Position numbers and translations under genes: made by a program. Below are positions 1,889 through 20,011 of a DNA stretch of 64,000 nt, in pieces. The first letter of the stretch is position 1. Each line of letters begins with the position of its first letter. This DNA is from Klebsiella phage KPN8, in sequence record OP079919.1; one strand, 5' to 3'. Below the pieces are notes generated by a model that saw nothing but the letters and a program-made list of their open reading frames with translations, had not been told where the DNA came from and ran no database searches.

Positions 1889-2182
1889 AGCTTAGAATCT
1901 TTCTTTCGTCAATTACTAGATTGGCCGGAATACGAAACACCATCGTACTTTATTAAAAACGGGGTATGCACGATTATAGACGGCGAAGACCAAATCAGTT
2001 TTCGCATAAGAGATATCGCCCGAATACGTTTGGTTAACCGTACTGTTAACCTCTACAGCCGCACGGGAATAGAGATCGCGTTCTACGGAAAGAAACCTCG
2101 CATCCACGTAGAGAGCTCTTCTGACTTTAAAGAATATTTCGTTAAAATGATGTCCGATATCTTCGCTGGAAGGGAATGCTGA
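1886..2182 (+). CDS. hypothetical protein
   Basis: ATG at 1886 preceded by the conserved TTTTAGGAATTAACATC element. The tracked ORF start at 1862 is TTG inside the terminator tail. Confidence 0.55.
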   Translation: MSLESFFRQLLDWPEYETPSYFIKNGVCTIIDGEDQISFRIRDIARIRLVNRTVNLYSRTGIEIAFYGKKPRIHVESSSDFKEYFVKMMSDIFAGREC

Positions 2183-2745
2183 TGAAAAGTATCAAACGTA
2201 AGTACGTAACAGCTAACGAACTTAAGAATAGTAAGTTCATTATCTTCGGGGAAATGCATACATCAGAAGATCGCGATGAAGTCGAATTTTTGATTCGACG
2301 GGCTCACACGCTAAAGCCGTTTAAAGTCCTCTTTAGTGAGGAATGCGGAAGTGAAGTGTTCCTCACACCTAATGCCATTAAACGAGGACTGGAATTAGAG
2401 AAATGGTCAATTAGCGATCGTTCCTTTAAATTAGCGTTAGAGCTCGGGTTACAAGTCGTAGGGTGCGATCTTTGGGATAAATCCGTTTACGCCTGGGATA
2501 AGAAAGACGAGAACGGAATCTACACAGATTGTCGACGTAGCTTCGCATTAAGAGAGCAGTTTATGATCGATCAGATCATGGGGCTGTGCAACCCTAACAA
2601 TCCACATGTGCGTGGCTGTATGATCGTAGGAGACAGTCACCTAAGGATGACAAAAAATCCCGTTATGGGAGATGCTAGTGCGCTCGGTAAGCTTGTTTAT
2701 AATCGGGGTTTAATTCTTCGCAGTGACATTGGGGAAGTGACATGA
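2176..2745 (+). CDS. hypothetical protein, possible GExH (Tiki/TraB/ChaN-like) fold
   Basis: 189-aa ORF overlapping its neighbours by 4-7 nt. IIFGEMHT motif resembles the GExH signature; weak. Confidence 0.5.
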   Translation: MLMKSIKRKYVTANELKNSKFIIFGEMHTSEDRDEVEFLIRRAHTLKPFKVLFSEECGSEVFLTPNAIKRGLELEKWSISDRSFKLALELGLQVVGCDLWDKSVYAWDKKDENGIYTDCRRSFALREQFMIDQIMGLCNPNNPHVRGCMIVGDSHLRMTKNPVMGDASALGKLVYNRGLILRSDIGEVT

Positions 2746-3170
2746 GAATATTCTTAATTCAGGAAAATTTTTGTAGTCGTGAGTTCTTTTCTCTTTTAAA
2801 GGATTACGGAGTTCCTAAGGGGAATCTGGATACGAATAAGGATGGATATATCTACGTTCGTACCGGGATAGAACCAAAAGAAATTATCCGGCGTATTAAG
2901 CTGGCTGATAGTCGCAAAATGAAAGTCGTTTTCATTATTCCGCATTATCTCAACCAGAGTAAAGAGCTGTACGCAGCTCTCAAGGACGATGGTCACAATT
3001 GGGAGAATCACCTAAGCATAGTCGGAAATCATTTGGAAGAAGCCGATTATGTTGATTTTGTCAGAGACGACAACCTCACAGATATTGTAAAGATCATTCA
3101 GCGTGTTAAAACTGAGTGGGGTCGGGTCACCCATCCCGCTTATTCGTCTATTTTTGGTTCAGTTAACTGA
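2742..3170 (+). CDS. hypothetical protein
   Basis: 142-aa ORF, ATGA overlap with the upstream gene. Confidence 0.5.
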   Translation: MRIFLIQENFCSREFFSLLKDYGVPKGNLDTNKDGYIYVRTGIEPKEIIRRIKLADSRKMKVVFIIPHYLNQSKELYAALKDDGHNWENHLSIVGNHLEEADYVDFVRDDNLTDIVKIIQRVKTEWGRVTHPAYSSIFGSVN

Positions 3171-3230
3171 AAACCCAATACTCGCCACCTTTATGTTTAA
3201 AGGTGGAGTGAGTAGAATAATTGGTCGGAG

Positions 3231-3659
3231 ATGATCATGAGACTATCCCAGTATAAAGATCTATTACAAAGTGTTTCGGCTGAGCCGATTCGGTTTAACT
3301 CTGAGTTCTACGAAAAAGTTATCCCTTTCCCTATTACAGGGAAAGACTCTACTAAGGCGCATTGGAGTTTGGTATTAAATCGCCCAGTTTCGGTAGAAGC
3401 GGCTTTCCTCAAATACGCGACTGGGGTCTTCGTTGATTTCGGGGAATACTTTACGATAAAGGAGCCGTTATCCTTAGCGGACTTCGTATTCCAATATAGC
3501 CGTAACGGCGGGTTTCAGTTAACGGAGTATTTCACTCACTTTATTCCCGCCCCCGATATCACCAGCCCATACGGCTGGGCTACGGTATCACGTAACCCCT
3601 TAAATATTAAAGCGCACTACGATCTGTTCGTGGGGAACCCCAAGTTCATTAAAAAATAA
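3231..3659 (+). CDS. hypothetical protein
   Basis: 142-aa ORF after a GGAG-containing spacer. Confidence 0.5.
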   Translation: MIMRLSQYKDLLQSVSAEPIRFNSEFYEKVIPFPITGKDSTKAHWSLVLNRPVSVEAAFLKYATGVFVDFGEYFTIKEPLSLADFVFQYSRNGGFQLTEYFTHFIPAPDITSPYGWATVSRNPLNIKAHYDLFVGNPKFIKK

Positions 3660-3682
3660 TCACATATTTAATTGGAGGGATT

Positions 3683-4090
3683 ATGGCTAGATTTAAAAGA
3701 CGCGGCGGTTACCGTTCCGATCATGGGCCGGAAGCCGAGTCCCTGAAGATAGAATTAATTCTCAATACGGGGTTGATTAACGAGCTTACAGAAGCGATAA
3801 AAGAGAGAAAATATTCAAGATTGCAACTCCAAATAGCTTACCACAATTACCGTCGGAGTCATTTAAATAAAACACAGCCATTGACCGAATTGGAAAAGAA
3901 CGCCCACATCGCAAAAATAGATCGGGTGAACCGGATCCTCGCGGGGCTTTGCCTGCAGCATAAAGCCGCCGTCGCCAGACAAATCACACTCAAAAATAAA
4001 TACCGAGAGGCATACACTGAGTATTATCGGGCTAACGGAATCAACGCACATTTAATAATAGGGAGTTGGGGTTACATCCCGGCCTCCTAA
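3683..4090 (+). CDS. hypothetical basic protein
   Basis: 135-aa ORF, GGAGGG 6 nt upstream of ATG; Arg/Lys-rich. Confidence 0.55.
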   Translation: MARFKRRGGYRSDHGPEAESLKIELILNTGLINELTEAIKERKYSRLQLQIAYHNYRRSHLNKTQPLTELEKNAHIAKIDRVNRILAGLCLQHKAAVARQITLKNKYREAYTEYYRANGINAHLIIGSWGYIPAS

Positions 4091-4097
4091 GAAAACC

Positions 4098-4117
4098 TTT
4101 TAGGAACTAACATCATG
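4098..4117 (+). promoter_or_regulatory. conserved start-site element (copy 2)
   Basis: TTTTAGGAACTAACATCATG. Confidence 0.6.
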
Positions 4118-4912
4118 ACAGACCAATGTGAGTGGAAAGACGTTTATGTGACTGGCTGCAATCATGTAAACGATAAGATCATGTTAAAATATCGCCCTCA
4201 GTTTCGTACGATGGAAGAACATGATAACGAAACCTGGGGCCTTCTCGACCAAGTGCCAGAAGATAAAATCGTTATCTTCTTAGGTGACAACTTCCTCAGT
4301 CCAGAAAGTCTAATAAGACTAAAACAGTATAAGTTTTACAAAGTCCACGTACTCGGTAACCACGATCTCCAAAACGGGGTGAATATAAAAATGATTACCG
4401 ACGTGATGGATGAAGTCCATGGTAGCATTAAAATGGACGGGATATGGTTCTCGCACATCCCGATGCATAAACACGCTTTAGGACATGGTTATATTAACAT
4501 CCACGCTCACATGCACACCGACACGTTATACGACGATCGTTACGTTAACGTAAGTATGGATGCGACCAATTATCGTTTAATCTCTGTCGATGAAATACTG
4601 AACGGCAAGTACGTTCCTTTTTCCTTCCTCCCTAAAGGAAAAACAGAATCCTTAGATTTAACTGTCCCGATAAACGTTACTCGGTTTATTCTCGACGAAG
4701 AGATCTTTGATCAGGAAGGTAACTTAGTCGCAGAAATTAAATCAGTTGACGCCAGCCGCCCAATGAAGATAGACGTGAATATAAAAATGTTGCTCAGTGA
4801 GTTTAAAGCACATTTTAAATCACCTACCCAGTTCAAATTCGTCGCAGGTAGGGGCCAGGTTCACTCTAAAATTGTTTTCAACAAAATATCAACTCAGGAG
4901 TTACCATCGTGA
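4115..4912 (+). CDS. calcineurin-like metallophosphoesterase
   Basis: Motifs VTGCNH..D, FLGDNF, GNHD, HIPMH and NIHAHMH match the metallophosphatase signature. Preceded by the conserved TTTTAGGAACTAACATCATG element. Confidence 0.7.
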   Translation: MTDQCEWKDVYVTGCNHVNDKIMLKYRPQFRTMEEHDNETWGLLDQVPEDKIVIFLGDNFLSPESLIRLKQYKFYKVHVLGNHDLQNGVNIKMITDVMDEVHGSIKMDGIWFSHIPMHKHALGHGYINIHAHMHTDTLYDDRYVNVSMDATNYRLISVDEILNGKYVPFSFLPKGKTESLDLTVPINVTRFILDEEIFDQEGNLVAEIKSVDASRPMKIDVNIKMLLSEFKAHFKSPTQFKFVAGRGQVHSKIVFNKISTQELPS

Positions 4913-6240: not shown

Positions 6241-6678
6241 ATGAGTTTACGTGCTTTGTATTGCGGTGGTGTTGTTAAAAATGGAATAGTGGCTTGGGGG
6301 AACCATATCCCAGTTACTCATCGAGAAACTTTCCTTCAATTTAAATTTCAACTCAAAGGATGTAAATCGGCTGGGTTCTTAGGGGACGAAGAAGGGTATT
6401 TGAAAATTTATGGTAAGAGTATTAGTCTCGGTATCGAGGCTAATGATTTTACTAATAAACGAATCAGGGCGGGTCAAGACAACTACCGGTTCTTCCGTTG
6501 CATGGTGACCGTAGGTAACTACGAATTCCCGTTATTATTTTGCGGAACTTACGAACCTGAGTTCTTTGAGTTACGTAAGGAAATCACCAGAGACGAGCTT
6601 GGCGATGCGTTAAGTCAGCTCGAACAACTGGGTTGCAATTATGTCAGCAACGATCGCAGAACCGTTAACTGGCTTTAG
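6241..6678 (+). CDS. hypothetical protein
   Basis: 145-aa ORF, AAGGA 7 nt upstream. Confidence 0.5.
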   Translation: MSLRALYCGGVVKNGIVAWGNHIPVTHRETFLQFKFQLKGCKSAGFLGDEEGYLKIYGKSISLGIEANDFTNKRIRAGQDNYRFFRCMVTVGNYEFPLLFCGTYEPEFFELRKEITRDELGDALSQLEQLGCNYVSNDRRTVNWL

Positions 6679-6687
6679 GAAAATGAA

Positions 6688-7911
6688 ATGTTCGAATATC
6701 TCATTCAGATAAATCAGGTTCTCTCTTCTGTCCCTATTATCGGTGGGAGTTTAGCGGTAGCCTTAGGCGGCGGGATCATTGCCGCCTTCTGGAAAGGTCC
6801 AGCGTTACTCTCGAGGATTTTTAACTCCACTGTTGTGGTTTCCTTCACTCTTAATAACTCAGGGTGGGGCAATAATACCAAGCACTACATTGCGTTTATT
6901 AAATGGTTTAACCGTTCAGATATTCTTAAGATAACGCGATCTACTGGTTACGAGGCCGTTTACGACAGCTCTGGTAAAGGGCCTAGTGTCGGCAGTCATT
7001 TATTTCGATTTAAGAATAAATGGTACTATCTCAAAATCAAAGAACTCCCTTCTACGGGAAGCGAGCGTGAGAAGAAAGAGATATGTATAAAGACGTTAGG
7101 GTGTTCTGTCAGCATTTTCGACGATCTCTTCGAGGCCTTTAAGGATAAGACGGATGACGACGGAGAACTCAAAGTAAAACGGTTCAGGGACAATTACTGG
7201 TACGACGCCTGTCTTCTCAGCAGAAGGTCGTGGGATACCGTCATCTTAAACAAAGAAAAGAAGGTGGAAATAGTCGAACTCATCGAAGAGTTTTACGCGT
7301 CGAGGGAGTGGTACCGAGAAAGAGGAATACCGTATAAACTCGTTATTGTTTTGTACGGCCCGGCCGGGACGGGTAAGAGTACTGTTATCAAAGCGTTAGC
7401 ACGCTTGTTTAACAAAAACCTTAACCTCATTTATCTTCACCAAATGACGGATAACACCTTCCCGGCCAGCATAGAGACGGTAGAGCAAGATTCTTTTATT
7501 GCCATAGAGGATTTTGATACGGTTTCTTCTATAGGGTCGAGGACCAAACCTAAGGAGGAAAAAGATCCGTTCCAAATAGACCTTTCAGACGGAGGATTAA
7601 ACCTGACCACTGTTTTAAATACATTGGATGGGATCGCCGAATTGAATGGTCAGGTCATCTTTATGTCAACCAACCATCTTGAAAAGATCGACAGTGCGCT
7701 GATCAGAACGGGTAGGGTGGATGCAAAAATCCACATCGGGTTTTTAGGTAAAGAAGAGGTCGGAGACTTTATTCAAATGATGTATCCCGGAACAGAAACT
7801 GATTTGGATTTTGTTACAGAAATCTCTGGGTCGGATCTTCAGTCGTATGCGTTAGCCAACAAAAGAAATTCGGAAGGTTTCTTAAAAGAGCTTAAGGACC
7901 ATTTTAAATAA
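6688..7911 (+). CDS. BCS1-like AAA+ ATPase with N-terminal transmembrane helix
   Basis: N-terminal hydrophobic helix PIIGGSLAVALGGGIIAAFW. Walker A is VLYGPAGTGKST, Walker B is FIAIEDFD. Segment LNTLDGIAELNGQVIFMSTNHLEKIDSALIRTGRVDAKIHIG closely parallels the Bcs1 signature LNALDG...FMTTN...LDPALIRPGRVD. Confidence 0.8.
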   Translation: MFEYLIQINQVLSSVPIIGGSLAVALGGGIIAAFWKGPALLSRIFNSTVVVSFTLNNSGWGNNTKHYIAFIKWFNRSDILKITRSTGYEAVYDSSGKGPSVGSHLFRFKNKWYYLKIKELPSTGSEREKKEICIKTLGCSVSIFDDLFEAFKDKTDDDGELKVKRFRDNYWYDACLLSRRSWDTVILNKEKKVEIVELIEEFYASREWYRERGIPYKLVIVLYGPAGTGKSTVIKALARLFNKNLNLIYLHQMTDNTFPASIETVEQDSFIAIEDFDTVSSIGSRTKPKEEKDPFQIDLSDGGLNLTTVLNTLDGIAELNGQVIFMSTNHLEKIDSALIRTGRVDAKIHIGFLGKEEVGDFIQMMYPGTETDLDFVTEISGSDLQSYALANKRNSEGFLKELKDHFK

Positions 7912-7935
7912 CCTTTTATTTTAGGACAAACATCG

Positions 7936-8490
7936 ATGATTTTACAAGCAGTTAGCGTCGGTGGTAAGAAAACCACCATAGAAATAGAAGAAGGGCTTGT
8001 TAATGTTTGGCTGTTAGCTAAGCACGACGTCTTCTTACAAAACTTACCTCCTCTGGTTTGTCATGCATTGATTAAAGAGCATATCGAACGCAATATTACC
8101 CGTCGACCTGACATTCCTTTAACAGCCCAAGTACGCGAGCTGATGTACCGCGATATTACCATTAAGCTCAACGGTAAACCAAACTCGGTCATTCCCGTAA
8201 TTAAAGTAAGGCCGAGTAAAACCAGAAACCAGCTGAACCGAATCGTCAAAGAGTACTTCACGGTAAACAGCATGGAGTTCGATAAGAAACTCACTGTTGG
8301 TGAAATGCGTAAATTGGAGAAATACCTCCTTTCCTTTTACAAAGAACCCGTGCAGATTCACAAGAAAGAATTCCCTAATGGGGTTTATAAACTCATCGGC
8401 GTGGAATACGAAAATGAGCGGTTTGAAATAACCTTCTCTGACGATTTCTTCTTCGCTTTATATAAGGGCCCAGAATACCATGTTCAATAA
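7936..8490 (+). CDS. hypothetical protein
   Basis: 184-aa ORF preceded by a TTTTAGGACAAACATCG element. Confidence 0.55.
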   Translation: MILQAVSVGGKKTTIEIEEGLVNVWLLAKHDVFLQNLPPLVCHALIKEHIERNITRRPDIPLTAQVRELMYRDITIKLNGKPNSVIPVIKVRPSKTRNQLNRIVKEYFTVNSMEFDKKLTVGEMRKLEKYLLSFYKEPVQIHKKEFPNGVYKLIGVEYENERFEITFSDDFFFALYKGPEYHVQ

Positions 8491-8899
8491 TGTCATTTTA
8501 TTTGTCTATGACGATAGTGAGCTCGCTACCCAGTACACCGTGGCTAATAAAGGTGGAACAAGAAGATTAACAACCCCAGGTCACAGTGTTCTCTTATCTG
8601 ACGTCAAAGATAGAGTGGGGAAAAGCAGTTTCCATAACAGCATTGTGGTATTTGTACGAGGAGGGGCTTTCTTTGTTTTCATGTGCGGGTCCGTTCTATA
8701 CGGATTGGTGGGTGATCTCGATCACCTTCTGGATCACTTGTTGAAGATCAGGGACGAACTCAATACTCGGGCAGACATACGCAATCGGACAATACTGCAT
8801 ATCTCCGAGGCAGGATTCGGGCGGTACGACATCATTCCGACCATCGATCCCGTCGCGCACAAGGCATTGGCTGATTACCAAAATAATAAATTATTCTAA
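8480..8899 (+). CDS. hypothetical protein
   Basis: 139-aa ORF overlapping the upstream gene by 11 nt; followed by a strong terminator. Confidence 0.5.
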   Translation: MFNNVILFVYDDSELATQYTVANKGGTRRLTTPGHSVLLSDVKDRVGKSSFHNSIVVFVRGGAFFVFMCGSVLYGLVGDLDHLLDHLLKIRDELNTRADIRNRTILHISEAGFGRYDIIPTIDPVAHKALADYQNNKLF

Positions 8900-8902
8900 C
8901 AG

Positions 8903-8948
8903 TTACTGGAGTGGGGATGACCCCACTCCAGTAAGTTATTTTTTTTTT
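8903..8948 (+). terminator. intrinsic terminator
   Basis: 14-bp stem TTACTGGAGTGGGG/CCCCACTCCAGTAA with loop ATGA and a 10-T run. Confidence 0.8.
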
Positions 8949-9015: not shown

Positions 9016-9264
9016 ATGATTTATTTCGATTTAGATTTTTTACTCGGGTCTAAGATCACGAAAGAAGAATTTAAGGAACTATTTCCGGATGCGGATCCCG
9101 ACCACCTATCCTGTTCTTCTACCGAGGAGGAAATCGATTTCGAAAATGCTTTTTGTGCGGAAGATCCTTATGATTCGGAAATCCTTCACCGATCTGTACC
9201 CATAATCGAAGGATCAAAATCAGATTTAATTTCGTCATACAAATTAGCGGAGGATGAGATATGA
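9016..9264 (+). CDS. small acidic protein
   Basis: 82-aa ORF after an AT-rich promoter-like gap; GGAG 8 nt upstream. Confidence 0.5.
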   Translation: MIYFDLDFLLGSKITKEEFKELFPDADPDHLSCSSTEEEIDFENAFCAEDPYDSEILHRSVPIIEGSKSDLISSYKLAEDEI

Positions 9265-10253
9265 TTATTGCTTTAAAAACGTTTGTTGGTAGTAAACTGT
9301 TTGGATTAGAAACAGAGAATTCGGATACGGATATAAAGGGAATTTATATTCCTTCTGCTAAGGATATTCTTCTGCATCGTTATCACCCTGTGATCGATAA
9401 ATCTTTTAATAAGGGGACTTATCGAGCCAACAAGCCGGAAGATACAGATGAAGTCTATTTCTCTTTGGACAAGTTTATCGAGCTTCTCATAAAAGCCGAT
9501 ACAACGGCTTTCGATATGCTGCACGCACCAGAAAGTAAAATCCTCATCTCCACTGACATTCATCACGAGCTTTGGAGAAACCGGTCCAAGTTTTATACTA
9601 GCCGATTGGATGGTCTGTTCGGCCAGGTTATTACCGAAGCGAATACTTACGGTGTTCGGAGTATGCGAGCTGCCGTTTTAAAAGAGGTCGTTGAAATCGT
9701 TTCTTCGTGGGATGATTTTAAATTGTCGGGATGCAGATTGGGCGGACTGATTTCTCAGCTCCCAGTCGATAACGTGTACACGCGTATAACGCGGGATGAG
9801 ACACAGAGGGCTGGCTGTCAGGATTTCTATGAAATTCTAGATCGTAAATTTCAGTACACCATCTCGGCTTTGAAATTCAAAACTGCTATTCTGGAATTAT
9901 GGTCTTCCTACGGAGAAAGGGTTAAGAAGGTGGAGTTATCTGGGGGTAATGATTGGAAGGCGTTAAGTCATGCTTTCAGAATCGGATATCAGCTGTTAGA
10001 TATCTACCGAGAAGGCGATTACACTTTTCCTTTAAAGCAAAGCTCTACGATTATGAAAATTAAACTCGGGGAGGTTTCAGAAGAAGAATCAAGAGAAATG
10101 CTGAATCAACTCATTTCCGATGTTAAAACTGCAGCAGGTAAATCCGGACTTCCCACTGAGGTTGACCCAGAACCCTGGTACGATTGGGTCGCGGACGTTT
10201 ACGCTGGAGTAGTTAAGAAAGCTTACTTACCTAAGGGGTTTAGATTGTCATGA
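9261..10253 (+). CDS. pol-beta-superfamily nucleotidyltransferase (RlaP/minimal NTase-like)
   Basis: N-terminal GSKLFGLETENSDTDIKGIYIP fits the hG[GS]x9-13 D-x-D nucleotidyltransferase signature; 330-aa ORF with ATGA overlap. Confidence 0.6.
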   Translation: MIIALKTFVGSKLFGLETENSDTDIKGIYIPSAKDILLHRYHPVIDKSFNKGTYRANKPEDTDEVYFSLDKFIELLIKADTTAFDMLHAPESKILISTDIHHELWRNRSKFYTSRLDGLFGQVITEANTYGVRSMRAAVLKEVVEIVSSWDDFKLSGCRLGGLISQLPVDNVYTRITRDETQRAGCQDFYEILDRKFQYTISALKFKTAILELWSSYGERVKKVELSGGNDWKALSHAFRIGYQLLDIYREGDYTFPLKQSSTIMKIKLGEVSEEESREMLNQLISDVKTAAGKSGLPTEVDPEPWYDWVADVYAGVVKKAYLPKGFRLS

Positions 10254-10438
10254 CGCCGACGATGATTTTAGGAAGTTGTTTTGTGGTAGGGGGTTTTATC
10301 TTCCTTTACGTCTTAATCAGAATCTTAATTAAGAACAGCTTAGATGGCTTCGACCGAATGTTTATTGCGGGGGCTGGGTTAACAGCCGTCGGCTTTATTA
10401 TTTTCTCAGCAGGGTTGATACAGGGGGTTGCGCCGTGA
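10250..10438 (+). CDS. small membrane protein (2 predicted TM helices)
   Basis: 62-aa ORF made of two hydrophobic stretches. Confidence 0.45.
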   Translation: MTPTMILGSCFVVGGFIFLYVLIRILIKNSLDGFDRMFIAGAGLTAVGFIIFSAGLIQGVAP

Positions 10439-10722
10439 ACGAAGAAACCATTGCGATTATTTTGACAAAAGATAAAGTTATTAACGATCTTCCATGTGAG
10501 CTTCGAGAATGGGTGACTTGCTGGAACCACGAAGGTTTCTTTGTATTAGGTCGATCAGGTCAGTTTCCCTGGGGTACCATTTGCTGCATTGGGGAGGGTA
10601 TTCCCGAGTTTATTACTTCGGAAGAAGCTGAGAAAATATTAATCAAAGCAAAGGCGGTCGCCAAGGTATTAGAAGAGGCATATCACGATTTTGCCAAGAC
10701 GTCTTTCCTTACCCCTGAGTAA
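10435..10722 (+). CDS. hypothetical protein
   Basis: 95-aa ORF, GTG start overlapping the upstream stop. Confidence 0.45.
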   Translation: MNEETIAIILTKDKVINDLPCELREWVTCWNHEGFFVLGRSGQFPWGTICCIGEGIPEFITSEEAEKILIKAKAVAKVLEEAYHDFAKTSFLTPE

Positions 10723-10814
10723 AGATTCGGCATTCAACACATCAGGTGGTTACGAACACTACACCGCCAAACGTAGTTTAAAGCCCAGTGGGCTAAGATT
10801 AAGGAATCATTGAA

Positions 10815-18413: not shown

Positions 18414-18436
18414 TTTTTAGGAGTATTAACATCGTG
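18414..18436 (+). promoter_or_regulatory. conserved start-site element (copy 4, GTG start of chaperonin)
   Basis: TTTTTAGGAGTATTAACATCGTG. Confidence 0.6.
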
Positions 18437-20011
18437 AACGTTCGTGGCGTAAAAGTAAAAGCAGAAACCCGTCAAATTATTGATAACACCGTAGAGCTCG
18501 TTGCAACCGCGGTAACCTCGACCATGGGCCCTAACGGCAAGCTGGTTGTTATTGACGAAACGGGTAATCCTAAAATGACCAAGGATGGGGTGACTGTAGC
18601 GCGCTCTATCCGTTTGGATGATCGGGCAATGGACATCATCGCCAAGATGATCACCGAAGCCTCGATCAAAACGGATGCCGAATGTGGCGATGGGACCACC
18701 ACCACCGTATTCTTAACAAGAGCGTTTTATAACGCCTTTAAAGATAAACTGGATTTCATGACCAAACGCCGGGTGGAAGAGTTAACGAAAGAAACGATCG
18801 AAATGCTCAAAGGAATGACGAAGGTTATTTCTCTTGATAGCCCAGTCCTTCACAATCTGGCGTTAACAACCAGTAATAACGATCTGGATATCGTGAATAA
18901 GCTCTACGATATCTTTAAGACCATACCCGATCCCATGATTGATTATCGTCGGGGTGTAACAGGTATTGACGAGATCGAATACAGTAAGGGCAAGGAATTC
19001 ACAGGCGGGTACGCGCACCCTACTTTCACTAAAGATGGAAGTGGAAGCCCGATTACGATCGAATCGGGTTATGCGTGCATCTTTGAAGGGAAGTTCAGTA
19101 TTCCAGATGACGAGTCGGAATTCCTGAGGCTCTTCGATGAGATCACTAAAAGGGGATATCGTCAGACTATCGTTATCGCACGTGAATTCGACGAACACAC
19201 CCTGATGGTGATGAACAAAATGAATCACGTTATGCTGAAGCAGAAACTGGCGGAGGAACCCGTTTTCATTCCTGTGCGGGTTCAGGCTATCGGAACAGCG
19301 GGAGTGGGGATCATTGGAGATATTGCAACCGTACTGGGGTTAAGTCCTGATGTGGACTATTTAGGTTGGAAGTCTCGTGACTATGAGGTACACTGTATTG
19401 AAAACATTACGGTAAAGGGCGCGGCATTCTTCGTGGGTAGTGTATCTGATGAAGTCTCGGAACGCACAGTAAAGCGCATCGGGCAAATTAAAGATCAAAT
19501 CGATAACTTGCCAGCTGCTCAGAAACACACGCCTTTGGCGAAGATCCTGAGACACCGTATCTCTACTCTGATGGGTAACCGAGTGACTGTAACCGTTGGA
19601 GGAGAAACCGCTTCCGACATCAAAGAACGACTGGATCGATTTGAAGACGTCGGTCGGGCTATCGCATCAGCGTTAACTAACGGCGTCCTTCCGGGCATTG
19701 GTTATTCATTGGCTTATGTTGGTAGTGAGCTGGTGAAGAAATATCCTGACGATTCTATAGTGAAACTGTACGCCGATGTATTGGGCGAGCAGCTTCACAT
19801 GTTGATGGGTCGGGAATTCAATGATCCTGAATTAGTCTATGTCAATCTGGCTACTGGGGAAACCGGTAAGCATCCTCAAGACATCAACGTCTGGGATGCG
19901 CAGTTAGCCACAGTCACTGCGTTAAGGGCTGGTGTCAGCACTGCTATCTCTTTGGCGAGCACCGATACGTTAATTATCGGTAGTCGTGCAGGTGGTGCGG
20001 ATATTCCCTGA
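18434..20011 (+). CDS. GroEL-like group I chaperonin (Hsp60 family)
   Basis: 525-aa product. TMGPNGKLVVIDETGNPKMTKDGVTVARSIRLDD and AECGDGTTTTVFLTRAF parallel GroEL [29 protein letters not shown] and AGDGTTTATVLAQA. GTG start preceded by TTTTTAGGAGTATTAACATC. Confidence 0.85.
   Translation: MNVRGVKVKAETRQIIDNTVELVATAVTSTMGPNGKLVVIDETGNPKMTKDGVTVARSIRLDDRAMDIIAKMITEASIKTDAECGDGTTTTVFLTRAFYNAFKDKLDFMTKRRVEELTKETIEMLKGMTKVISLDSPVLHNLALTTSNNDLDIVNKLYDIFKTIPDPMIDYRRGVTGIDEIEYSKGKEFTGGYAHPTFTKDGSGSPITIESGYACIFEGKFSIPDDESEFLRLFDEITKRGYRQTIVIAREFDEHTLMVMNKMNHVMLKQKLAEEPVFIPVRVQAIGTAGVGIIGDIATVLGLSPDVDYLGWKSRDYEVHCIENITVKGAAFFVGSVSDEVSERTVKRIGQIKDQIDNLPAAQKHTPLAKILRHRISTLMGNRVTVTVGGETASDIKERLDRFEDVGRAIASALTNGVLPGIGYSLAYVGSELVKKYPDDSIVKLYADVLGEQLHMLMGREFNDPELVYVNLATGETGKHPQDINVWDAQLATVTALRAGVSTAISLASTDTLIIGSRAGGADIP

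What the first reader, a model, noticed from the sequence alone, without database searches (positions are those of the whole stretch)
6688..8899. Phage-encoded BCS1-type membrane-anchored AAA+ ATPase
The 407-aa product has the full Bcs1 architecture: an N-terminal TM helix, a Bcs1_N-like middle region and an AAA module. The signature LNTLDG...FMSTNHLEKIDSALIRTGRVD is almost the same as mitochondrial Bcs1 (LNALDG...FMTTN...LDPALIRPGRVD). Bcs1 is unusual among AAA proteins because it moves a fully folded substrate (Rieske Fe-S protein) across a membrane through a large central chamber. I do not know of a described role for a Bcs1-type ATPase in a phage. In a phiKZ-like nucleus-forming jumbo phage this suggests a folded-protein translocase, for export across the inner membrane or across another proteinaceous barrier. 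The two downstream genes (7936..8490 and 8480..8899) overlap it and end at a strong terminator, so they are candidate substrate or adaptor partners.
Basis: partly seen in the sequence, partly recalled or inferred. Interest (0 to 1): 0.8.

Follow-up and report, generated by a model that had tools for sequence, protein, structure and literature searches.

The report
Accessory Bcs1-type ATPase in jumbo phage
This jumbo-phage gene does encode a membrane-anchored relative of the mitochondrial Bcs1 protein-moving ATPase, but that was already on record, the gene is absent from near-identical sister phages, and its two downstream neighbours are not its partners.

Summary
The 407-aa product belongs to the Bcs1 family. 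Bcs1 is its best solved relative (E 4e-31, against 1e-19 for the next AAA clade), and the top 17 fold matches are all Bcs1, aligned over the full length. It has one N-terminal TM segment, a Bcs1-specific middle domain, a 7-stranded RecA sheet, an "ED" Walker B and two Arg fingers.

This is not new. The window is ~98% identical to Klebsiella phage Miami, where the gene is annotated "chaperone protein, IPR027243". Iyer et al. 2021 described BCS1 orthologs in jumbo phages and proposed folded-protein translocation.

The gene is an accessory cassette:
- Phage YC1 (96.8% identical) lacks it entirely.
- A second Miami-like genome has an empty slot.
- phiKp_32 has a different soluble AAA there.
- VB_ZK_P1 has an intein in it.
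- PhiKZ gp286, a homolog, is non-core and its knockdown does not reduce plaques.

The two downstream ORFs occur only in Miami-like phages and persist without the ATPase, so they are not dedicated partners. A role at the phage nucleus is disfavoured. ATP-driven handling of folded cargo at the host inner membrane is the most likely mechanism, but it is untested.

The parts
6688..7911 (+). Bcs1-family membrane-anchored AAA ATPase gene (407 aa), 99.5% identical to CPT_Miami_182
   Evidence: ORF. PDB phmmer best hit Bcs1, 4e-31. Foldseek top 17 hits all Bcs1. phrog_7485 at 4.9e-108. Miami annotation 'chaperone protein, IPR027243'.
6727..6792 (+). Residues 14-35: Gly-rich hydrophobic segment, the predicted single TM anchor (N-terminus out, bulk of the protein in the cytoplasm)
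   Evidence: KD19 of 1.94. Part of a long helix, residues 16-49, in the AF2 model. The flank after the segment carries net +1 to +4 charge in the orthologs whose TM segment was located.
6835..7140 (+). Residues 50-151: Bcs1-specific (seal-forming) domain. Strands at 50-56, 80-83, 86-91, 94-99, 102-108, 111-119 and 130-137; helices at 62-76 and 141-151; candidate seal loop LPSTGSEREK at 120-129
   Evidence: Secondary structure from the AF2 model compared with the published Bcs1 domain description. Pfam BCS1_N 2.8e-6, borderline. The yeast Bcs1 alignment starts at query residue 19. The PxxGxHxF motif is shared with mouse Bcs1.
7171..7908 (+). Residues 162-407: AAA module. Two extra N-terminal strands (162-167, 170-176) give a 7-stranded sheet. 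Walker A GPAGTGKS at 224-231 (nt 7357-7380), Walker B FIAIEDFD at 270-277 (nt 7495-7518), sensor-1 N329, Arg fingers R340 and R343
   Evidence: Match to the Bcs1 AAA crystal structure 6u1y: TM 0.85, rmsd 2.4 A.
6678..7906 (.). Gene-sized cassette that is present or absent among sister phages. This stretch is missing from phage YC1, whose alignment to the window breaks at 6677 and resumes at 7907
   Evidence: blastn of the window against the whole YC1 genome, and tblastn of the ATPase against YC1 with no hit. Junction sequences. Empty slot also in L086.
7936..8490 (+). 184-aa ORF of unknown function, found only in Miami-like phages. It sits in the same gene string as the ATPase but is not a conserved partner
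   Evidence: No Pfam, PHROG, NCBIfam or PADLOC hit. tblastn finds it in 6 Miami-like records only. Two homolog clusters in 5.8 billion proteins. Present without the ATPase in YC1, phiKp_32 and L086. AF2 model unusable.
8480..8899 (+). 139-aa ORF of unknown function with one hydrophobic stretch (residues 55-73). It is hypervariable among sister phages and overlaps the 184-aa ORF by 11 nt
   Evidence: Only 50% identical in BUCTxx100 although the flanks are 98-99% identical. Only close homologs exist, at 77-95% identity.
8903..8948 (+). Intrinsic-terminator-like hairpin (stem 8903-8934) plus T-run, ending this string of + strand genes
   Evidence: sequence, and annotated as a terminator in Miami.

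Best explanation
The gene encodes a viral member of the Bcs1 family of AAA ATPases. It is carried as a dispensable accessory cassette in a plastic, early-type gene region of a Miami-like chimallivirus.

Shown here: homology to Bcs1 across the AAA module and the Bcs1-specific domain; one N-terminal hydrophobic anchor; intact ATPase motifs; the presence/absence polymorphism; and the lack of any conserved neighbour.

Inferred: the protein inserts into the host inner membrane with a short periplasmic N-terminus and its bulk in the cytoplasm, the same orientation as Bcs1 relative to the mitochondrial matrix. It assembles into a ring, probably a heptamer, whose chamber opens to the cytoplasm. It uses concerted ATP binding and hydrolysis to take up a folded protein and push it into or across the inner membrane, not to thread an unfolded chain. 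The cargo is unknown. It cannot be the Rieske protein in Klebsiella, which from established knowledge has no bc1 complex. The function improves fitness under some conditions but is not needed for nucleus-based replication or for plaque formation.
For: Family membership:
- Bcs1 is the best solved relative by 12 orders of magnitude.
- The top 17 Foldseek PDB hits are Bcs1 and align over about 400-428 columns.
- The AF2 model (pLDDT 83) reproduces the published Bcs1 domain layout, including the 7-stranded sheet.
- ED Walker B, reported to be shared only with YjoB among classical AAA proteins.
- Arg fingers R340 and R343 are invariant across the alignment.
There is no aromatic pore-loop-1 motif, in line with the published remark that critical pore-loop residues are not conserved in Bcs1.

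Membrane anchor: hydropathy and positive-inside bias are conserved in most close orthologs.

Accessory status:
- The complete YC1 genome lacks the gene, with clean breakpoints.
- The slot is empty in L086, holds a different AAA in phiKp_32 and carries an intein in VB_ZK_P1.
- PhiKZ286 is listed as non-core, and its knockdown has no PFU/CFU effect.

Acts without a conserved adjacent partner, as homo-oligomeric Bcs1 does: no neighbour family is conserved.
Against: - No experiment shows membrane localisation, oligomeric state or any cargo for a phage Bcs1.
- Pfam BCS1_N is marginally below its gathering score (27.8 against 28.1 bits).
- The TM assignment rests on hydropathy only. The Munch ortholog's segment is weaker (KD 1.17).
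- For phiKZ gp286 the only physical data point to ribosomes, not to a membrane cargo: SEC-MS co-fractionation with 70S and cross-links to L7/L12, L10 and L11.
- Knockdown of gp286 lowers ChmA levels, which a simple exporter model does not predict.
Confidence: 0.45

Rival explanations
1. Membrane-remodelling, host-takeover or counter-defence factor. The anchored AAA ring extracts, dislocates or remodels host or competitor inner-membrane proteins instead of exporting phage cargo. Examples would be membrane-bound defence effectors or superinfection-related proteins.
For: The gene sits in a hyperplastic accessory region with presence/absence, gene replacement by another AAA, and a hypervariable neighbour. 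That pattern is, from my own knowledge, typical of conflict genes. It is non-core and dispensable in the lab. The authors of that screen suggest such genes matter in hosts with different defence systems.
Against: No match to a defence or anti-defence family beyond weak P-loop-region hits (IetA 2e-8 over about 60 residues). The protein lacks the aromatic pore loop used by extracting or unfolding AAA proteins.
Confidence: 0.2
2. Membrane-proximal virion assembly chaperone (Iyer et al. 2021). The ring binds folded proteins that are to be packaged into the head and delivers them during prohead assembly at the membrane.
For: Proposed in the literature for this same family. From my own knowledge, phiKZ-like capsids assemble at the inner membrane. 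The family is spread over several jumbo phage groups.
Against: The gene lies among small early-type and nucleotide-metabolism genes, not in a structural module. The sister phage YC1 makes virions without it. Knockdown of phiKZ286 leaves plaque counts unchanged.
Confidence: 0.15
3. Ribosome-associated factor. The protein docks on the ribosomal stalk, possibly tethering ribosomes to the membrane, and so tunes translation of phage proteins early in infection.
For: PHIKZ286 and its neighbour PHIKZ285 co-fractionate with 70S ribosomes. PHIKZ286 cross-links to rplL, rplK and rplJ. Its knockdown reduces ChmA protein without changing plaque counts.
Against: Inference: membrane fragments could co-elute with ribosomes in size-exclusion runs, and L7/L12 is abundant and mobile, so the cross-links may reflect proximity only. 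gp285 has no detectable homolog next to the Miami-type gene. Nothing in the Bcs1 fold suggests ribosome binding.
Confidence: 0.12
4. Translocase for folded proteins across the proteinaceous phage-nucleus shell (one of the first reader's suggestions).
For: The host genome is a chimallin-encoding phage. Nuclear import moves folded proteins, and from my own knowledge no motor for it is known.
Against: The anchor is a lipid-type TM segment, whereas from established knowledge the chimallin shell is a lipid-free protein lattice. The family also occurs in phiTE (Vequintavirinae) and, from memory, in other non-chimalliviruses. It is absent from YC1 and from the slot in L086. It is listed as non-core, and its knockdown is harmless whereas PicA knockdown abolishes plaques.
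Confidence: 0.03

Closest known systems
Mitochondrial Bcs1 / BCS1L (yeast 6SH3, mouse 6UKO)
   Same: Same three-part layout: an N-terminal TM helix, the Bcs1-specific seal domain, and an AAA module with a 7-stranded sheet. Also shared: ED Walker B, two Arg fingers, the WYxxRGIPY(K/R) motif, short Walker A to B spacing without an aromatic pore loop, and the predicted orientation (bulk on the matrix or cytoplasmic side).
   Different: Only about 23-25% identity over the aligned structures. Encoded by a bacteriophage. From established knowledge the Klebsiella host has no bc1 complex, so the Rieske protein cannot be the cargo. The heptameric state is unverified. The gene is dispensable for the phage.
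Jumbo-phage BCS1 orthologs (PHROG 7485; phiKZ gp286, PhiPA3 gp347; described by Iyer et al. 2021)
   Same: Same family and the same N-terminal layout. Already proposed to translocate folded proteins at the membrane. Non-core in phiKZ.
   Different: The phiKZ-type proteins are about 100 aa longer (508 aa) and match over query residues 38-298 at about 32% identity. In phiKZ, PhiPA3 and PA1C they sit next to a conserved gp285-like gene that has no detectable homolog in the Miami-type loci.
Bacillus subtilis YjoB (7W42)
   Same: Next-best fold match after Bcs1 (E 3e-16). Reported to have an ED Walker B, an N-terminal domain with a Bcs1-like fold and an internal chamber.
   Different: YjoB is reported as a soluble cytoplasmic hexamer without a TM anchor, restricted to Bacillales. 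Sequence similarity to the phage protein is far weaker (1e-12).
BCS1-like AAA ATPases of giant eukaryotic viruses (for example Clandestinovirus, Medusavirus, Mimivirus)
   Same: Full-length fold matches in BFVD at E 1e-22 to 1e-28. Several are annotated 'mitochondrial chaperone BCS1'.
   Different: They infect eukaryotes and may target host mitochondria or endomembranes. Sequence identity is 16-21%.
Bacterial Tat pathway (functional analogue, not a homolog)
   Same: Moves folded proteins across the bacterial inner membrane. The Tat system transports the Rieske subunit of the chloroplast b6f complex, and researchers have speculated that Bcs1 replaced Tat in mitochondria.
   Different: Unrelated proteins. 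From established knowledge Tat is driven by the proton-motive force, not ATP, and has no AAA ring.

Membership tests
Bcs1 family (BCS1_N + AAA) | Single N-terminal TM anchor with the bulk of the protein on the matrix or cytoplasmic side | tested here: met
   One segment, residues 14-35, with KD19 of 1.94. Helix 16-49 in the AF2 model. Positive-inside bias in orthologs. This is a prediction only; localisation was not tested.
Bcs1 family (BCS1_N + AAA) | Bcs1-specific seal-forming domain (two beta-sheets plus two helices; Pfam PF08740) | tested here: met
   The order of secondary-structure elements in the model matches the published description. The yeast Bcs1 alignment runs from query residue 19. 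Foldseek alignments span 400-428 columns. Caveat: the Pfam score of 27.8 bits is just under the 28.1 cut-off, although PF08740 is precomputed for the 99%-identical P0001.
Bcs1 family (BCS1_N + AAA) | RecA-like subdomain with a 7-stranded sheet (two extra N-terminal strands) | tested here: met
   Strands at 162-167 and 170-176 precede the five core strands in the AF2 model. The feature is defined.
Bcs1 family (BCS1_N + AAA) | ED instead of DE in Walker B | tested here: met
   FIAIEDFD at residues 270-277. E274 and D275 are invariant in alignment A1. The feature is cited.
Bcs1 family (BCS1_N + AAA) | Sensor-1 Asn and two Arg fingers | tested here: met
   N329, R340 and R343 are invariant. They align to mouse ALIRPGRVD, where the published Arg fingers are R343 and R346.
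Bcs1 family (BCS1_N + AAA) | No canonical aromatic pore-loop 1 | tested here: met
The feature is cited.
Bcs1 family (BCS1_N + AAA) | Closer to Bcs1 than to any other AAA clade | tested here: met
   4.3e-31 against 1.2e-19. Foldseek ranks 1-17 are all Bcs1.
Bcs1 family (BCS1_N + AAA) | Homo-heptameric ring with a substrate chamber | not testable with these tools
   Only monomer prediction is available.
Bcs1 family (BCS1_N + AAA) | Translocates the folded Rieske Fe-S protein for complex III assembly | not testable with these tools
   Unlikely as such, because from established knowledge Enterobacterales lack a bc1 complex. This concerns the role, not family membership.
Jumbo-phage BCS1 ortholog group (PHROG 7485) | Full-length profile match | tested here: met
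   E 4.9e-108, query residues 3-404 against profile positions 7-414 of 430.
Chimallivirus core or nuclear-import machinery | Present in all nucleus-forming phages and required for plaque formation | tested here: not met
   Absent from the complete YC1 genome. Listed as non-core with no PFU/CFU effect for phiKZ286.
Three-gene module (ATPase plus the 184-aa and 139-aa ORFs) | Co-occurrence of the three genes across genomes | tested here: not met
   The two ORFs occur only in Miami-like phages. They are present without the ATPase in YC1, L086 and phiKp_32. They are absent next to the 37% and 34% orthologs.
Anti-phage defence AAA proteins (PADLOC) | Full-length match to a defence-system model | tested here: not met
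   The best hit is IetA at 2e-8 over residues 181-245 only.

The most novel reading that the evidence does not exclude
Phage Bcs1 is an ATP-driven, Tat-independent exporter or insertase for folded proteins at the bacterial inner membrane. That would be the first AAA-ring system of this kind acting in a bacterial cell. A further corollary: only phage-like contigs turned up in a pattern-limited scan of 185,579 prokaryotic genomes, while the nearest named cellular relatives are eukaryotic. So the mitochondrial Bcs1 that took over the Rieske step from Tat might descend from such a viral gene.
Probability: 0.2. Interest if true: 0.75.

Novelty: already known. Interest (0 to 1): 0.33.

Why it matters
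The biology is still open. As far as I could find, no phage or bacterial-cell Bcs1 has a known cargo. An ATP-driven route for folded proteins across the bacterial inner membrane would be a new transport principle in bacteria. What this analysis adds is practical. Nature has already made the controls: sister phages with the gene, without it, with a different AAA in its place, and with an intein in its P-loop. That makes a comparative experiment straightforward. It also removes two misleading leads, the nuclear-shell translocase idea and the downstream "partner" genes.

Tried and rejected
- Downstream ORFs as partners. Profile scans against Pfam, PHROGs, NCBIfam and PADLOC found nothing. tblastn and deep protein searches found only Miami-like homologs. 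The AF2 model of the 184-aa ORF had pLDDT 43, so it was not used for a fold search.
- Conserved neighbour search. All-against-all clustering of ORFs from about 70 loci found no family that recurs with the ATPase across phage groups. phmmer against the neighbours of the 37% and 34% orthologs was negative.
- Defence-system membership. Only weak partial hits.
- Cellular homologs. The first genome scan failed for lack of a conserved pattern. The second used patterns specific to the phage-type sequences and gave 3 contigs from metagenome-assembled genomes (MAGs), of which the two longer ones, the only ones checked, carry phage genes. It therefore cannot exclude more distant bacterial Bcs1-like proteins.
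- The AlphaFold-database fold search, which would have given taxonomy, was unavailable.
- Papers on mitochondrial Tat and Bcs1 evolution say nothing about the origin of Bcs1.
- Tang et al. 2020 could not be read. The review by the same group was used instead.
- Supplements of the knockdown paper added only that PHIKZ286 is transcribed and detected.
- No phylogeny was attempted, because most homologs carry no taxonomy.
Full report
WHAT IS THERE. A strong terminator-like hairpin follows at 8903-8934, with a 14-bp stem, 8 G-C pairs and a long T-run. One detail is wrong. The ATPase gene is separated from the 184-aa ORF by a 24-nt spacer that carries a ribosome-binding site. Only the two small ORFs overlap, by 11 nt. 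The window is 97.7% identical over this region to Klebsiella jumbo phage Miami (253 kb, genus Miamivirus). The rest of the window carries phiKZ-type split RNA polymerase beta genes and many genes whose best matches are in phages EL, OBP, RisingSun, PCH45 and Goslar. Prichard et al. 2023, who studied chimallin-encoding phages, used Miami as a distant relative of phage RAY. The "phiKZ-like jumbo phage" context therefore holds.

IS IT A BCS1? Yes. Searched against all solved structures, Bcs1 is the best match: mouse 4.3e-31 over query residues 99-373, and yeast 2.6e-29 over query residues 19-383. The next AAA clade (VCP-like, AFG2) scores 1e-19 and B. subtilis YjoB scores 1e-12. An AlphaFold2 model built on 25 homologs has mean pLDDT 83. 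Its top 17 Foldseek hits in the PDB are all Bcs1 chains, aligned over about 375-428 columns. The Bcs1 AAA crystal structure matches with TM 0.85 and rmsd 2.4 A. YjoB comes next, then proteasomal Rpt subunits.

I took the defining features from the structural literature and tested each one.
- TM anchor. There is a single N-terminal hydrophobic segment, residues 14-35, with a Kyte-Doolittle 19-residue mean of 1.94 and nothing else above 1.1. It forms part of a long helix, residues 16-49, in the model.
- Bcs1-specific domain. The model has strands at 50-56, 80-83, 86-91, 94-99, 102-108, 111-119 and 130-137 and helices at 62-76 and 141-151. This fits the published two-sheet, two-helix domain. A conserved loop, LPSTGSEREK at 120-129, sits where the seal loop is expected.
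- 7-stranded sheet. Two extra strands (162-167, 170-176) lie in front of the five core RecA strands.
- Walker B. The sequence is FIAIEDFD, with ED rather than DE.
- Sensor-1 and Arg fingers. N329, R340 and R343 are invariant.
- Pore loop.

One caveat applies: Pfam BCS1_N scores 27.8 bits against a 28.1-bit cut-off. The heptameric state and the transport activity cannot be tested here. From my own knowledge it is the sensor-1 and second-region-of-homology stretch common to classical AAA proteins. It is not the pore loops and is not specific to Bcs1.

TOPOLOGY. Across the orthologs whose TM segment was located, the 15 residues after the segment carry net +1 to +4 charge, and the preceding residues carry -1 to +1. 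By the positive-inside rule (established knowledge) the short N-terminus faces the periplasm and the Bcs1-specific and AAA domains face the cytoplasm. That matches Bcs1, whose bulk faces the matrix. This step is inferred.

IT IS ALREADY KNOWN. The Miami GenBank record annotates this gene, CPT_Miami_182, which is 99.5% identical, as "chaperone protein, InterPro:IPR027243". From memory, that InterPro entry is mitochondrial chaperone BCS1. Other phage records call their copies "mitochondrial chaperone", "mitochondrial chaperone BCS1" or "complex III assembly protein". Iyer, Anantharaman, Krishnan, Burroughs and Aravind (Viruses 2021, PMC7824862) reported orthologs of BCS1 in representatives of all three major jumbo-phage groups. 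They proposed that these proteins bind and translocate folded proteins during membrane-proximal assembly. The family is PHROG 7485, labelled "unknown function". tblastn finds it in 155 phage records. The same fold is common in giant eukaryotic viruses. The N-terminal region alone retrieves only 178 clusters among 1.84 billion representative proteins. Nearly all are 400-470 aa and match from their own N-terminus, so this is a small family with a fixed architecture. A pattern-based scan of 185,579 prokaryotic species genomes returned three MAG contigs. The two longer ones, the only ones checked, carry phage genes (a head protein, a portal protein and a homing endonuclease in one; a phage-type MazG in the other).

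EXPERIMENTAL RECORD FOR A HOMOLOG, phiKZ gp286. It is transcribed and detected as protein. In SEC-MS it co-fractionates with 70S ribosomes, and it cross-links to L7/L12, L11 and L10 (Fossati et al. 2023). In an antisense knockdown screen it is listed as "non-core, uncharacterized". Its knockdown had no effect on plaque or colony counts but lowered ChmA protein ("++"). Knockdown of the nuclear importer PicA abolished plaques (Gerovac et al. 2025).

THE GENE IS A DISPENSABLE CASSETTE. This is the main new result here. Among phages that are 92-99% identical in the flanks, the slot between the 145-aa and 184-aa ORFs is polymorphic.
- Miami, BUCTxx100 and this window carry the 407-aa gene.
- Raoultella phage VB_ZK_P1 carries it with a 367-aa intein inserted directly after the P-loop lysine. 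The insert has a LAGLIDADG endonuclease domain and ends in His-Asn followed by Thr.
- phiKp_32 carries instead a 355-aa soluble AAA protein, only 27% identical over the ATPase core, with no TM segment and no BCS1_N match.
- YC1 has nothing there. Its alignment to the window breaks at 6677 and resumes at 7907. A tblastn of its entire 252.5-kb genome finds no copy of either ATPase, although 60.4 kb of the 64-kb window aligns at 96.8% identity.
- A more divergent Miami-like genome (L086, 252.8 kb) also goes straight from the 146-aa ORF to the 187-aa ORF.
The surrounding region shows further indels, and the 139-aa ORF is only 50% identical in BUCTxx100.

THE DOWNSTREAM ORFS ARE NOT PARTNERS. Neither matches any profile library. 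Both occur only in Miami-like phages. Both persist where the ATPase is missing or replaced. Contigs encoding the 37%- and 34%-identical orthologs still share detectable homologs with other window genes, yet they have no homolog of these ORFs, and the ATPase lies in a different neighbourhood. Clustering of all ORFs from about 70 loci found no family that accompanies the ATPase across phage groups. Like homo-oligomeric Bcs1, the protein appears to work without a dedicated adjacent partner.

MOST LIKELY MECHANISM AND RIVALS. The fold, the anchor, the chamber-type architecture without threading pore loops and the intact ATPase site make a Bcs1-like action the best-supported mechanism: uptake of a folded protein from the cytoplasm and ATP-driven delivery into or across the inner membrane. 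I put this at about 0.45. Membership of the Bcs1 family itself I put above 0.9. The cargo is unknown. It cannot be a Rieske protein in Klebsiella, which from established knowledge has no bc1 complex.

The rivals are:
- a membrane-remodelling or conflict factor (0.2), favoured by the accessory-island behaviour;
- the virion-assembly chaperone of Iyer et al. (0.15), weakened by the dispensability and the gene's position;
- a ribosome-linked role (0.12), suggested by the phiKZ cross-links and the ChmA effect;
This one conflicts with the lipid-type anchor, with the family's presence in phiTE (Vequintavirinae, from my own knowledge not nucleus-forming), with its absence from YC1, and with its non-core, non-essential status in phiKZ.

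VERDICT. Both were already on record, and so was the translocase hypothesis. The proposed operon partners and the link to the phage nucleus do not hold. Interest is moderate to low. The function is still unknown, and the natural set of variants (gene present, absent, swapped, intein-bearing) offers a ready-made experiment. The finding itself would not surprise a specialist.

Noticed in passing
L004 2860-3960 (Raoultella phage VB_ZK_P1, ortholog ORF 2170-4491): A 367-aa intein is inserted directly after the P-loop lysine (GPAGTGK|A...THN|T) of the Bcs1-like ATPase. It has a LAGLIDADG homing-endonuclease domain (PF14528, 6e-12). The record annotates the whole 773-aa ORF as a hypothetical protein.
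   Followed up: partly
L002 2963-4030 (Klebsiella phage phiKp_32): In the same slot this sister phage has an unrelated-looking 355-aa soluble AAA ATPase. It has an ED Walker B but no TM segment and no BCS1_N match. Its family is also found in phiKZ-like, Phabio and Campylobacter phages, so one AAA gene has been swapped for another at a single locus.
   Followed up: partly
window 8480-8899: The 139-aa ORF is hypervariable. It is only 50% identical in BUCTxx100 although the flanking genes are 98-99% identical, and it is truncated or fused in VB_ZK_P1. It has one hydrophobic stretch (residues 55-73, KD 2.1).
   Followed up: partly
window 3112-3618 and 9292-10776: Further stretches are absent or unalignable in sister phage YC1. 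The whole 3-11 kb region behaves as a plastic island of small accessory genes.
   Followed up: no
window 18434-20008: A GroEL-like chaperonin gene (96.6% identical to Miami_205, 'chaperonin large subunit') lies about 10 kb downstream of the Bcs1-like gene. The phage therefore encodes at least two chaperone-type machines.
   Followed up: no
window 9261-10253: An RlaP-family nucleotidyltransferase (Pfam PF10127, 3e-11; phrog_388, 2e-76) sits just after the terminator. It is conserved in the same position in Miami, phiKp_32, VB_ZK_P1 and the contigs L082 and L086; YC1 has no gene of that size at that position.
   Followed up: no
L069 2928-3809 (Cronobacter phage CR5) and L073 3499-5529: A MazG-type pyrophosphohydrolase gene lies immediately upstream of the Bcs1-like gene both in CR5 and in an unrelated MAG contig (Dongiaceae bin). 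This could be shared ancestry or a recurrent pairing.
   Followed up: no
L007 3381-4637 (phiTE) and L069 3833-5314 (CR5): The annotated start codons of the phiTE_021 and CR5_117 orthologs appear to cut off the N-terminal TM segment. In-frame upstream starts restore a hydrophobic segment (KD 2.0-2.1) in the conserved layout.
   Followed up: partly
L074 and L073 (MAG contigs assigned to Synechococcus and Dongiaceae): These 'bacterial' genome-bin contigs that carry a Bcs1-like gene also encode phage genes: a major head protein, a portal protein and a GIY-YIG homing endonuclease in L074, and a phage-type MazG in L073. They are probably mis-binned phage DNA.
   Followed up: partly
L077 36426-39972 and L078 26202-29600 (phage YC1): The YC1 record annotates three separate CDSs as 'terminase large subunit, intein-containing'. 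This suggests split or intein-bearing genes, or mis-annotation, in this phage group.
   Followed up: no
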